From the NCBI RefSeq assembly GCF_009914755.1, contig NC_060940.1: a DNA stretch of 64,000 nucleotides; one strand, written 5' to 3'. The position numbers and the translations under genes were made by a program. Numbering within the stretch: position 1 is the stretch's first letter; each line of letters starts with the position of its first letter. This document shows positions 3,316 through 6,035 of this stretch, one piece after another. The notes below the pieces were generated by a model. That model did not search any database and had not been told where the DNA came from. It saw only the letters and a list, made by a program, of their open reading frames with translations. This DNA is from the human T2T-CHM13v2.0 reference genome, Homo sapiens.

Positions 3316-3509
3316 TTTTACATAACCAACCACTTCTAAAGATTAAAAAAAAACCCCTATGATTAAAAACCTCAGGTCCCTCAGGCAATCATACCAGATA
3401 TCGAAACAAAGCAATAACATAAGGACTGCAGTATTTATTTTATTTTTATATTATTTATTTATTCTTTGTTAGTTTTTGGAGTGTGGGTTTTGTTTTGTTT
3501 TTTGAATTT

Positions 3510-3535
3510 TTTATTTTGTTCTACTCGGTTTTATT
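3510..3535 (-). terminator. Candidate NPIPB polyadenylation signals (AATAAA at 3535-3530 and 3515-3510)
   Basis: Hexamers 35-60 nt downstream of the stop, in an A-rich Alu-tail-like tract. Confidence 0.7.
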
Positions 3536-3569
3536 CTTATTGCTCAGGCTTGAGTGCACTGGCCTCTTC

Positions 3570-6035
3570 TCAGCTCAACCTCCGCCTCTTGGGTTCGGGT
3601 AATGATGGTTCCACGTCAGCGGCCCTCCGCCTCTTGGGTTTGCGTGACGGTTCCACGTCACCGACCCTCCGCCTCTTGGGTTCGGGTGATGATGGTTCCA
3701 CGTCAGCGGCCCTCCGCCTCTTGGGTTTGCGTGACGGTTCCACATCACCGACCCTCCGCCTCTTGGGTTCGGGTGATGATGGTTCCACGTCAGCGGCCCT
3801 CCGCCTCTTGGGTTTGCGTGACGGTTCCACGTCACCGACCCTCCGCCTCTTGGGTTCGGGAGGTGGTTCCATCTCAGCCGCCCTCTGCCTCTTGGGTTTG
3901 CGTGGTTTTTCTGCCTCAGCCTCCTGAGTAGCTAAGGGAGGTGTCTTGAGATTATCATCGGCTGAGGGTGGAAGCGGCCCCCGCAGACGCTCGGCAGGTG
4001 TCTTGATATTATCATCTGCTGAGGGTGGAGCTGAGGGTGGAAGGGGAGTGAGCTGACGCTCAGAAGGTGTCTTGAGATTATCATCCGCTGAGGGTGGAAG
4101 CGGCCCCCGCAGACGCTCGGCAGGTGTCTTGATATTATCATCTGCTGAGGGTGGAGCTGAGGGTGGAAGGGGAGTGAGCTGACGCTCGGAAGGTGTCTTG
4201 AGATTATCATCCGCTGAGGGTGGAAGCGGCCCCCGCAGACGCTCGGCAGGTGTCTTGATATTATCATCTGCTGAGGGTGGAGCTGAGGGTGGAAGGGGAG
4301 TGAGCTGACGCTCGGAAGGTGTCTTGAGATTATCATCCGCTGAGGGTGGAAGCGGCCCCCGCAGACGCTCGGCCGGTGTCTTGATATTATCATCTGCTGA
4401 GGGTGGAGCTGAGGGTGGAAGGGGAGTGAGCTGACGCTCGGAAGGTGTCTTGAGATTATCATCCGCTGAGGGTGGAAGCGGCCCCCGCAGACGCTCCCCG
4501 CAGACGCTCGGCAGGTGTCTTGATATTATCATCTGCTGAGGGTGGAGCTGAGGGTGGAAGGGGAGTGAGCTGACGCTCGGAAGGTGTCTTGAGATTATCA
4601 TCCGCTGAGGGTGGAAGCGGCCCCCGCAGACGCTCGGCAGGTGTCTTGATATTATCATCTGCTGAGGGTGGAGCTGAGGGTGGAAGGGGAGTGAGCTGAC
4701 GCTCGGAAGGTGTCTTGAGATTATCATCCGCTGAGGGTGGAAGCGGCCCCCGCAGACGCTCGGCAGGTGTCTTGATATTATCATCTGCTGAGGGTGGAGC
4801 TGAGGGTGGAAGGGGAGTGAGCTGACGCTCGGAAGGTGTCTTGAGATTATCATCCGCTGAGGGTGGAAGCGGCCCCCGCAGACGCTCGGCAGGTGTCTTG
4901 ATATTATCATCTGCTGAGGGTGGAGCTGAGGGTGGAAGGGGAGTGAGCTGACGCTCGGAAGGTGTCTTGAGATTATCATCGGCTGATGGTGGAAGCGGAA
5001 TCCGCAGACGCTCAGCAGGTATCTTGATATTATCATCTGCTGAGAGTGGAGCTGAGGGTGGAATGGGAGTGAGCTGACGCTCGGAAGGTGTCTTGAGATT
5101 ATCATCCGCTGAGGGTGGAAGGCAGGTGTCTTGATATTATCATCTGCTGAGGGTGGAGCTGAGGGTGGAAGGGGAGTGAGCTGACGCTCGGAAGGTGTCT
5201 TGAGATTATCATCCGCTGAGGGTGGAAGCGGCCCCCGCAGACGCTCGGCAGGTGTCTTGATATTATCATCTGCTGAGGGTGGAGCTGAGGGTGGAAGGGG
5301 AGTGAGCTGACGCTCGGAAGGTGTCTTGAGATTATCATCCGCTGAGGGTGGAAGCGGCCCCCGCAGACGCTCGGCAGGTGTCTTGATATTATCATCTGCT
5401 GAGGGTGGAGCTGAGGGTGGAAGGGGAGTGAGCTGACGCTCGGAAGGTGTCTTGAGATTATCATCCGCTGAGGGTGGAAGCGGCCCCCGCAGACGCTCGG
5501 CAGGTGTCTTGATATTATCATCTGCTGAGGGTGGAGCTGAGGGTGGAAGGGGAGTGAGCTGATGCTCGGAAGGTGTCTTGAGATTATCATCCGCTGAGGG
5601 TGGAAGGGGATGGAGCAGACACTCGGCACGTGTCTTGAGATTATCATCCGCTGAGGGTGGAGCTGAGGGTGGAGCTGAGGGTGGAAGGGGAGTGAGCAGA
5701 CACTCGGGAGGTGTCTTGAGATTATCATCCGCTGAGGGTGGAAGGGGAGTGAGCAGACACTCGGGAGGTGTCTTGAGATTATCATCCGCTGAGGGTGGAA
5801 GGGGAGTGAGCAGACACTCAGGAGGTGTCTTGAGATTATCATCCGCTGAGGGTGGAAGGGGAGTGAGCAGACACTCGGGAGGTGTCTTGAGGCTCAGGGA
5901 GTTATCAGTTATAGAATGTTGTTGAGTTGGAGGAGGTGGCTGGTGGCCCATCCTGTTTTTTAAAGTTTCAGCTGTGAGGTAGGGCCAGTAGGGCAATCCT
6001 GAAGAATGACGATGCTCCGCTGCCGCCATTCTGAC
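3570..6035 (-). CDS. NPIPB: NPIPB terminal coding exon (821 aa plus stop): [17 protein letters not shown]..., Pro-rich VNTR and basic C-terminal repeat
   Basis: Within ORF 3570..6065. Acceptor ccctacag at 6036-6043. Matches the recalled NPIPB3/B4/B5-type C-terminal region. Confidence 0.95.
3579..3910 (-). repeat. Coding VNTR 2: 87-bp (29 aa) unit made of 42+45-bp subunits, encoding a PKRRR array
   Basis: ctcttgggttcggg recurs every 87 bp. Protein [29 protein letters not shown]. Confidence 0.95.
3935..5895 (-). repeat. Coding VNTR 1: 57-bp (19 aa) and 69-bp (23 aa) units, mostly alternating as a 126-bp dimer
   Basis: Repeated gtgtcttgagattatcatccgctgagggtggaag / gtgtcttgatattatcatctgctgagggtggagctgagggtggaag. 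Confidence 0.97.

What the first reader, a model, noticed from the sequence alone, without database searches (positions are those of the whole stretch)
3490..3934. NPIPB basic C-terminus is an exonized Alu right arm amplified into a polyvalent NLS-like array
Seen: on the coding strand the region starts GCTACTCAGGAGGCTGAGGCAGAAAAACCACGCAAACCCAAGAGGCAGAGG and ends GAACCCAAGAGGCGGAGGTTGAGCTGAGAAGAGGCCAGTGCACTCAAGCCTGAGCAATAAGA plus an A-rich tail. This is colinear with the Alu right arm (GCTACTCGGGAGGCTGAGGCAGGAGAATCGCTTGAACCCGGGAGGCGGAGGTTGCAGTGAGCCGAGA...CTGCACTCCAGCCTGGGCAACAAGA). The Alu frame [19 protein letters not shown] has become [17 protein letters not shown]...EPKRRRLS, and the ~42-45-bp core is amplified to 7 PKRRR plus 1 PKRQR. 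The stop codon and both AATAAA also come from the Alu. Known: K(K/R)x(K/R) is the classical importin-alpha NLS consensus. Inference: a G-to-K change created an NLS, and repeat number may tune nuclear import avidity. I do not recall this origin being described.
Basis: partly seen in the sequence, partly recalled or inferred. Interest (0 to 1): 0.85.

Follow-up and report, generated by a model that had tools for sequence, protein, structure and literature searches.

The report
Alu-derived basic repeat tail of NPIPB
The lysine/arginine-rich repeat at the end of this NPIPB gene copy really is a piece of an Alu element that was fused to the last exon and tandemly multiplied, but this origin and its predicted nuclear-targeting role are already in print.

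Summary
Observation confirmed. On the minus strand, 3936..3537 matches an Alu profile built from 35 Alus of this window in two colinear pieces (E 3.5e-9 and 6.1e-10; 0 of 200 shuffles gave a hit). Paralogs with a single unit give one unbroken match to Alu positions 165-267 (E 6e-20). The repeat unit equals Alu positions 178-219 ([14 protein letters not shown] in the exon frame). The window has 8 units, 7 PKRRR and 1 PKRQR. Other copies in the same genome have 1, 3, 4 or 6.

The origin is not new. Bekpen 2017, Cantsilieris 2020 and Martinez-Gomez 2019 all describe it. The first also predicts NLSs and reports partial localisation tests. The third lists peptides from the units.

- The AAG lysine codon is also in a non-coding full-length copy of the same Alu at chr16:14.72 Mb, so it arose without selection for an NLS.
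- The stop is not the Alu's own. It comes from a CpG C-to-T change plus a 5-nt deletion.

Still open: whether the Alu was an old resident AluS rather than a fresh AluY insertion, and whether unit number changes nuclear import.

The parts
3937..6035 (-). Upstream part of the annotated last exon: unique start, then the SADDN.../MIISR... coding VNTR. It ends ...DDNLKTPP just before the Alu junction.
   Evidence: Translation; TRF periods 57/69/126/252 over 3939-5890; Pfam PF20885 NPB13-l_MII_rpt, E 5.1e-184; no Alu-profile hit in this part at E<=10.
3924..3936 (-). Junction and first Alu-derived bases (Alu model 165-177). GCTACTCAG from 3932 encodes ATQ.
   Evidence: nhmmer alignment starts at model 165 = window 3936. 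The same junction ...[15 protein letters not shown]... occurs in all 11 translated loci, the window and ten paralogous copies.
3882..3923 (-). Unit 1 (42 nt, [14 protein letters not shown]), equal to Alu model 178-219.
   Evidence: 32 of 42 identities to the model segment; 0 of 500 shuffles reach this.
3840..3881 (-). Unit 2 (42 nt, [14 protein letters not shown]).
   Evidence: 29 of 42 identities; 5 of 500 shuffles reach this.
3579..3839 (-). Units 3-8: three copies of an 87-nt double unit (42 nt [14 protein letters not shown] plus 45 nt AADVEPS(S/L)PEPKRRR).
   Evidence: TRF period 87, 95% matches. The 45-nt units have 29-30 of 42 identities (1-6 of 500 shuffles reach this). The 42-nt VGDV units have only 26 of 42 and are not significant alone (106-135 of 500). 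They are linked to the Alu through intermediate units in paralogs.
3570..3578 (-). TTG AGC TGA: last two codons (LS) and the stop codon (3572-3570).
   Evidence: The position aligns to Alu model gagccgaga with a 5-nt gap. Copies without that deletion read on as LSKLRT....
3516..3569 (-). Rest of the Alu right-arm body, now 3' UTR. It holds the AATAAA at 3535-3530.
   Evidence: nhmmer aligns through model 265 at 3537; alignment with the model and with L017/L019 to the body end.
3434..3515 (-). A-rich stretch after the Alu body, with five AATAAA. Those at 3463-3454 lie 20-29 nt before the annotated transcript end at 3434.
   Evidence: The proximal part is shared with the full-length Alu copy L019. 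The distal ~50 nt are also shared with NPIPA copies.

Best explanation
The C-terminal 121 residues, the stop codon and most of the 3' UTR of this NPIPB13-like copy come from one sense-oriented Alu right arm. The arm starts at Alu position ~165 and is joined in frame to the last SADDN-type repeat of exon 8. A 42-nt segment (Alu positions 178-219, [14 protein letters not shown] in that frame) was duplicated head to tail. Paralogs in the same genome hold 1, 3, 4 or 6 units. In the lineage of this window an 87-nt double unit was amplified further to give 8 units (7 PKRRR, 1 PKRQR). A 1-nt deletion takes the Alu's own in-frame stop out of frame in all NPIPB copies. A later 5-nt deletion, plus a CpG C-to-T change, gives the RRRLS-TGA ending of the 6- and 8-unit copies. 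All of the above is shown here. Inferred: each unit carries a K-R-R-R match to the classical monopartite NLS pattern, so the array most likely promotes nuclear import or retention of NPIPB. This whole account, including the NLS prediction, is already published.
For: An Alu profile built from 35 Alus of this window gives two colinear hits, E 3.5e-9 and 6.1e-10, sharing a 5-6-nt deletion at model 222-226. 0 of 200 shuffles gave a hit. The single-unit paralogs L017 and L018 give one unbroken hit, model 165-267, E 6e-20. Units align to model 178-219 at 26-33 of 42 identities. The junction is the same in all 11 translated loci (window and ten paralogous copies), and 10 of them form a 1/3/4/6/8-unit series; the chr18 copy stops early. 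Seven loci are 100% identical over the 527 nt. The annotated exons join to an intact 1035-aa ORF. The tail has 40 K+R in 121 residues and 8 K[KR]x[KR] matches. Print: Bekpen 2017 describes the PKRRRxxDVEP motif as arising from an Alu insertion plus a frameshift, predicts at least 4 NLSs, and reports that an antibody against a unit peptide stains mainly the nucleus. Cantsilieris 2020 reports a partial Alu insertion in exon 8. Martinez-Gomez 2019 calls the 3' repeat set Alu fragments and lists PeptideAtlas peptides EAEAQQLPKPK, VDEVEQSPKPK and HCTQAWAIR. These peptides equal my translations of the 3- and 4-unit copies.
Against: Structure: the three [14 protein letters not shown] units are not individually distinguishable from shuffles (26 of 42; 106-135 of 500 shuffles reach this). 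Interior units alone reach only E 0.05-0.1 with the profile. Rfam gives no match in 3400-4000. Function: in Bekpen 2017, NPIPA lacks the array yet is also mainly nuclear when over-expressed. One partial NPIPB clone (K1.4) was mainly cytoplasmic. No clone held the whole C-terminal repeat region. The 2025 pangenome preprint predicts a transmembrane domain for this subfamily and a signal peptide for others, which fits a soluble nuclear cargo poorly. This particular locus is annotated as a transcribed pseudogene. The units are so recent (95-100% alike) that their conservation says nothing about constraint.
Confidence: 0.85

Rival explanations
1. The array has no selected function. It is a by-product of the GGAGGCGGAGG stretch of the Alu being read as RRR, expanded by replication slippage or unequal exchange in a very unstable, fast-duplicating gene family.
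For: The lysine codon and the RxR core are already present in the non-coding full-length copy L019. The window's six distal units form a very recent 87-nt amplification at 95% identity. Unit number differs widely among paralogs. PKRWR and PKRQR variants are plain CpG decay of the CGG codon. NPIPA is nuclear without the array.
Against: The exonized right arm carries 18 lineage-specific changes against 2 in the non-coding copy. Right-arm divergence is 22 of 118 against 76 of 2079 in the flank, Fisher p 2.5e-9. This is not quiet neutral drift. Changes such as E to K add basic residues. The ORF is kept open in 10 of the 11 loci translated; the chr18 copy has an early stop. Peptides from the units are in PeptideAtlas.
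Confidence: 0.3
2. The basic array works, but not as an importin-alpha NLS. It could be a nucleolar or nucleic-acid-binding tail. In paralogs with a signal peptide it could be a string of dibasic processing sites.
For: Composition is 40 K+R, 21 D+E and 21 P in 121 residues. A signal peptide is predicted for B6-B10, B14 and B15 and a transmembrane domain for the B3-B13 group. The 95-kDa band is found only in the nuclear/cytoskeleton/insoluble fraction. That dibasic sites are convertase targets and that arginine-rich runs target nucleoli is recalled knowledge, not a call.
Against: The KRRR core fits the classical NLS pattern as well as any other pattern.
Confidence: 0.15
3. Origin as printed: a fresh, 5'-truncated AluY retrotransposed into exon 8 of an NPIPA-like gene in the African-ape ancestor. 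NPIPA therefore shows the empty site.
For: Stated in Bekpen 2017 and Cantsilieris 2020 on the basis of cross-species gene models whose figures I could not see. The unrooted flank tree allows a single gain if the root is placed on the NPIPA stem.
Against: A full-length copy of the same Alu sits at chr16:14.72 Mb. It shares 11 derived substitutions, the same A-rich tail and 2.2-2.4 kb of the same flank, with no NPIP exon upstream. A truncated insertion cannot regrow a left arm without a further Alu-Alu exchange. That copy is 13.1% from the window's Alu consensus (7.1% outside CpG), equally in both halves. RepeatMasker calls the NPIPB6 pieces AluSq2 and AluSx4, not AluY. The flank of the full-length copy is the most divergent of all 12 (2.6-3.7% against 0.3-3.0% among the rest), so a clock-like root makes it the outgroup. 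In NPIPA the repeat unit is cut at CTCAAGA and joined to the distal part of the A-rich stretch. NPIPB keeps the unit's normal continuation CACCTCCC, which an insertion at that point would have to recreate by chance.
Confidence: 0.4
4. The resemblance to Alu is chance or low-complexity similarity.
For: None beyond the weak scores of single interior units.
Against: E 6e-20 for the unbroken single-unit copies. 0 of 200 shuffles of the window region gave a hit. 1 of 200 shuffles of L017 gave a hit, at -1.1 bits, against 63.5 bits for the real sequence.
Confidence: 0.01

Closest known systems
NPIPB-specific PKRRRxxDVEP C-terminal repeat (Bekpen et al. 2017, bioRxiv 10.1101/116087; Cantsilieris et al. 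2020, PMC7419210)
   Same: It is the same feature: 8 repeats of the motif, attributed to an Alu in exon 8 plus a frameshift. NLSs are predicted in the C-terminal region, and the C-terminus is said to matter for nuclear localisation.
   Different: Those papers call the element AluY and an insertion, and say the motif is fixed at 8 copies in all NPIPB duplicates. In this genome I find 1, 3, 4, 6 and 8 units. I also find a full-length, AluS-like, 13%-diverged copy of the same element elsewhere.
Alu-derived coding sequence in principal isoforms (Martinez-Gomez et al. 2019, PMC6924539): NPIPB6 'C-terminal swap'
   Same: [quoted passage not shown] RepeatMasker reports two Alu pieces per gene, matching my two profile hits. 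Peptides are listed from the units.
   Different: Peptide evidence is for the 3-4-unit NPIPB6 type, not the 8-unit type in this window. The paper gives no unit mapping to Alu positions and no NLS discussion.
Classical monopartite NLS, K-(K/R)-X-(K/R), of the SV40 large-T type
   Same: Each unit contains KRRR or KRQR preceded by proline, giving 8 pattern matches in 121 residues.
   Different: A pattern match only. No binding or import test exists for these units, and acidic DVEP/EMEP spacers separate the basic cores.
Typical Alu exonization (antisense Alu supplying splice sites for a new cassette exon; recalled knowledge)
   Same: Alu sequence becomes protein-coding.
   Different: Here the Alu is in sense orientation, supplies no splice site, extends an existing last exon, and supplies the stop and 3' UTR. 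It was then tandemly amplified.

Membership tests
Alu SINE (right arm) | Significant, colinear alignment to the Alu consensus or profile | tested here: met
   Model 165-243 and 192-265 in the window, E 3.5e-9 and 6.1e-10. Unbroken 165-267 in single-unit paralogs, E 6e-20. Shuffle controls. The profile was built from 35 Alus of this window, not from Dfam.
Alu SINE (right arm) | A-rich tail directly after the body | tested here: met
   A-rich stretch at 3515-3434, shared with the full-length copy L019.
Alu SINE (right arm) | Dimeric structure (left arm) and target-site duplications | tested here: not met
   The window has no left arm. Sequence upstream of 3936 is the NPIP VNTR and gives no Alu hit. 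The left arm is present only in the related locus L019. Candidate duplications there were judged by eye only and are inconclusive.
Alu subfamily AluY (as printed) | Low divergence and AluY diagnostic positions | tested here: inconclusive
   The full-length copy is 13.1% from the window consensus and ranks about 25th of 35 window Alus. RepeatMasker labels in print are AluSq2 and AluSx4. No Dfam consensus was available, so diagnostic positions were not scored.
NPIP family, B subtype | NPIPB-type last exon with MIISR repeats and the MVKLS start | tested here: met
   Pfam PF20885, E 5.1e-184. The annotated exons give MVKLS...KRRRLS, 1035 aa, with no stop.
Classical importin-alpha-dependent NLS | K-(K/R)-X-(K/R) basic core | tested here: met
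   8 matches in the 121-residue tail. The pattern itself is recalled.
Classical importin-alpha-dependent NLS | Binds importin-alpha; sufficient and necessary for nuclear import | not testable with these tools
   No importin reference is offered by the complex tool. Published localisation data are indirect and mixed.
Alu-derived polyadenylation signal | The AATAAA used lies in the Alu body or tail | tested here: inconclusive
   AATAAA at 3535-3530 (Alu body end) and 3515-3510 (proximal A-rich tail) are Alu-derived, but lie 76-101 nt before the annotated end. Those at 3463-3454 fit the end at 3434, and they lie in a stretch also present in Alu-less NPIPA copies.

The most novel reading that the evidence does not exclude
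The element is not a fresh AluY insertion. It is an old resident AluS at the 3' edge of the LCR16a duplicon, and the chr16:14.72 Mb partial duplicate still holds it full-length. NPIPB captured its right arm by a small deletion, and that arm then evolved about nine times faster than its non-coding twin. The NPIPA ending (...KKLRKNK) is itself a later deletion derivative that runs into the leftover A-rich tail. At the 3' end, the polarity 'A first, then B' would therefore be reversed. Separately and not excluded: the natural 1/3/4/6/8-unit series acts as a graded nuclear-import signal.
Probability: 0.4. Interest if true: 0.35.

Novelty: already known. Interest (0 to 1): 0.2.

Why it matters
NPIP is one of the fastest-evolving gene families in humans and African apes and sits at the core of the chromosome-16 duplications behind recurrent 16p rearrangements. 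Knowing that the NPIPB tail is amplified Alu sequence shows how junk DNA became a translated protein segment, but this has been in print since 2017-2020. Two smaller points are useful here: a clean map of the unit onto Alu positions with a within-genome copy-number series, and evidence that may revise how and when the Alu reached the exon. The functional question, whether the array imports the protein and whether unit number matters, remains open and is easy to test.

Tried and rejected
1. I tested whether the large SADDN/MIISR VNTR (3939-5890) is also Alu-derived, because of a by-eye resemblance on the opposite strand. There was no Alu-profile hit at E<=10 with all filters off, so I rejected this.
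2. Rfam scan of 3400-4000 for a 7SL/Alu-like family: no match at E<=1.
3. I looked for NPIP exon or intron sequence upstream of the full-length Alu at 14.72 Mb (8.4 kb searched). None was found, so that locus is only a partial copy starting at or in the Alu.
4. I tried to use the ~74%-identical chr10 and chrX relatives of the exon-8 start as outgroups for the 3' junction. Their similarity stops about 110 nt into the exon, and chr10 continues with a different tandem array. They were of no use.
5. Flank tree to polarise gain versus loss of the Alu. The topology fits both, and only the root decides. Midpoint or clock rooting favours loss in NPIPA, but rates differ about two-fold among lineages, so this is not decisive.
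6. Target-site duplications for the full-length Alu and microhomology at the NPIPA and NPIPB junctions were inspected by eye. There are several candidates and none is convincing.
One paper look-up failed on term syntax and was not repeated.
8. Searches for direct tests of an NPIPB NLS ('NPIP/Alu/morpheus' and 'NPIPB' + 'nuclear localization signal') found only Bekpen 2017. Of the other nine papers listed I opened only PMC10102026, which has no NLS test.
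Full report
WHAT IS THERE

On the minus strand the annotated last exon (6035..3434) is open from its first base to a TGA at 3572-3570. It first encodes the known SADDN.../MIISR... VNTR. After ...DDNLKTPP it switches at 3936/3932 to [10 protein letters not shown], followed by eight units ending in PKRQR (once) or PKRRR (seven times), and then LS-stop. 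TRF sees 3579-3904 as period 42 (7.5 copies, 81% matches) and, better, as period 87 (3.8 copies, 95%).

IS IT ALU?

I could not use a database consensus, so I built a profile from 35 full-length Alus found in this same window. With all filters off it hits the exon twice, both on the coding strand:
- Model 165-243 matches 3936..3864, E 3.5e-9.
- Model 192-265 matches 3606..3537, E 6.1e-10.

Both hits share a 5-6-nt gap at model 222-226. None of 200 dinucleotide shuffles of 3960..3434 gave any hit at E<=10. Interior units alone reach only E 0.05-0.1.

Two paralogs on 16q (G000 C16:75.79 and 76.01 Mb) have a single unit and give one unbroken hit to model 165-267, E 6e-20.

Mapping each unit shows that the repeat is Alu positions 178-219 (42 nt, [14 protein letters not shown]). 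Identities are 26-33 of 42. The three [14 protein letters not shown] units (26 of 42) are not significant on their own, since 106-135 of 500 shuffles do as well. They are tied to the Alu by intermediate forms in paralogs: EAEAQQLPKPKRRR, VDEVEQSPKPKRRR and [14 protein letters not shown].

THE PARALOG SERIES

A search of the window's own genome found 7 loci, this one included, that are 100% identical over the 527 nt, plus shorter versions. I translated the window and ten paralogous copies; the eleventh fetched locus, L019, is non-coding and was not translated. All 11 translated loci share the same junction. Unit counts are:
- 1 unit: 75.79 and 76.01 Mb.
- 3 units: 28.74 and 29.33 Mb.
- 4 units: 28.62, 29.05, 80.44 and 11.96 Mb.
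- 6 units: 29.66 Mb.
- 8 units: the window.
- The chr18 copy has a stop after its second unit.

Three further loci (28.94, 80.21, 80.32 Mb) were not fetched. Their hit extents match the 4-unit type. The statement in print that the motif is fixed at 8 copies in all NPIPB duplicates therefore does not hold for this assembly.

STOP AND POLY(A)

The Alu's own in-frame stop (CAG TGA in the consensus, CAG TAA in the non-coding copy) is bypassed in every NPIPB copy by a 1-nt deletion, giving ...RLSKLRT.... The 6- and 8-unit copies have a further 5-nt deletion. This brings a TGA into frame, and that TGA was itself made by a C-to-T change at an Alu CpG (gccgaga to GCTGAGA). The stop therefore lies in Alu-derived DNA but is not the Alu's stop.

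Six AATAAA follow it. The annotated transcript end at 3434 is best served by those at 3463-3454. These sit in a stretch that the Alu-less NPIPA copies also carry.

WHERE THE ALU CAME FROM

At C16:14.72 Mb there is a full-length Alu (model 1-301, E 3.5e-92). It has the same A-rich tail, including its odd non-A motif, and the same 2.2-2.4 kb downstream flank, which is 96.1% identical to an NPIPA flank and 93.3% to the window. No NPIP exon or intron lies upstream of it.

Against the Alu model, its right arm and the single-unit NPIPB right arm share 11 derived substitutions, including both G-to-A changes that turn GGG into AAG. After their split the non-coding copy gained 2 changes and the exonized copy gained 18, over 116 columns. 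Right-arm divergence between them is 22 of 118, against 76 of 2079 in the flank (Fisher p 2.5e-9).

Two conclusions follow:
- The lysine codon is also carried by a copy that is not coding, so it arose without selection for an NLS. Later E-to-K changes are specific to the coding lineage.
- The exonized arm evolved much faster than its twin, in keeping with the family's known rapid protein evolution.

The full-length copy is 13.1% from the window consensus (7.1% outside CpG), equally in both halves, and ranks about 25th of 35 window Alus. RepeatMasker labels printed for NPIPB6 are AluSq2 and AluSx4, not AluY.

NPIPA copies end ...DDNLKKLRKNK-stop. Their last repeat unit is cut at CTCAAGA and joined to the distal part of the A-rich stretch. 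NPIPB keeps the unit's normal continuation before the Alu.

On 2079 flank columns the 14.72 Mb copy is the most divergent of 12 sequences (2.6-3.7% against 0.3-3.0%). The tree fits either one gain (root on the NPIPA stem) or one loss (root on the 14.72 Mb copy, which is where the midpoint falls).

I therefore think it somewhat more likely than not that an old resident Alu was captured by deletion, and that the NPIPA ending is a further deletion. I cannot decide this without other primates.

WHAT IS IN PRINT

- Bekpen et al. [quoted passage not shown] They predict at least four NLSs in the middle and C-terminal region. They raised an antibody to a unit peptide that stains endogenous NPIPB mainly in the nucleus. 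They also report that NPIPA, which has no array, is mainly nuclear. One partial NPIPB clone was exclusively nuclear and another mainly cytoplasmic, and no clone contained the whole C-terminal repeat region.
- Cantsilieris et al. 2020 (PMC7419210, passages) repeat the partial-AluY-insertion account.
- Martinez-Gomez et al. 2019 (PMC6924539, passages and one supplementary table) say the 3' repeat set appears to be composed entirely of Alu fragments and list PeptideAtlas peptides from the units.
- The 2025 pangenome preprint (passages) does not mention the PKRRR array or an NLS. It predicts a transmembrane domain for this subfamily.
- Two searches found no direct test of the array as an NLS. Of the other nine papers listed I opened only PMC10102026, which has no NLS test.

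HOW IT MOST LIKELY WORKS

Shown: Alu-derived, in-frame, amplified, translated in at least the 3-4-unit paralogs, and very basic (40 K+R in 121 residues, 8 matches to K[KR]x[KR]).

Inferred: the cores act as classical NLSs, or at least as nuclear-retention elements. I put this at about one in two.

Rivals are a functionless by-product of reading GGAGGCGGAGG in this frame, or a different use of a basic tail. A graded effect of unit number is untested. The natural 1/3/4/6/8 series would make the test simple.

THIS LOCUS

It is annotated as a transcribed pseudogene, yet its annotated exons join into an uninterrupted 1035-aa MVKLS...KRRRLS frame. The exon matches Pfam PF20885 at E 5.1e-184.

VERDICT

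The new points here are details and one open question about polarity.

Noticed in passing
window 3434-25793 (minus): The locus is annotated as a transcribed pseudogene, but joining its seven annotated exons gives an uninterrupted 1035-aa ORF from MVKLS to KRRRLS-stop.
   Followed up: partly
L019 (G000 C16:14723700-14725500) with L021: A partial copy of the LCR16a 3' flank (about 2.4 kb) begins at or in a full-length Alu, with an antisense Alu 30 nt upstream and no NPIP sequence in the 8.4 kb before it. This looks like a segmental-duplication boundary at an Alu.
   Followed up: partly
L017 versus L019, Alu right arm: After their split the exonized right arm gained 18 substitutions and the non-coding copy gained 2, over 116 columns. 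Several changes add lysines.
   Followed up: partly
L022-L024 (NPIPA-type copies, G000 C16:14.95, 14.76, 18.37 Mb): The NPIPA proteins end ...DDNLKKLRKNK-stop. The last six codons, the stop and the AATAAATAAA lie in the same A-rich stretch that follows the Alu in NPIPB copies.
   Followed up: partly
L032, L033 (G000 C10:80.37 and 81.12 Mb), L034 (C23:50.37 Mb): About 74% identity to the end of NPIP intron 7 plus the first ~110 nt of exon 8. On chr10 a different tandem array follows. These may be older relatives of the exon-8 start.
   Followed up: partly
window 3939-5890 (minus): The exon-8 VNTR switches frame from SADDN... to MIISR... and back without a stop. This is described in print.
   Followed up: no
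L014/L029 (G000 C18:11.78 Mb): The chr18 copy has an in-frame stop after its second unit (PKRWS, PKRWR, then ADEV-stop).
   Followed up: no
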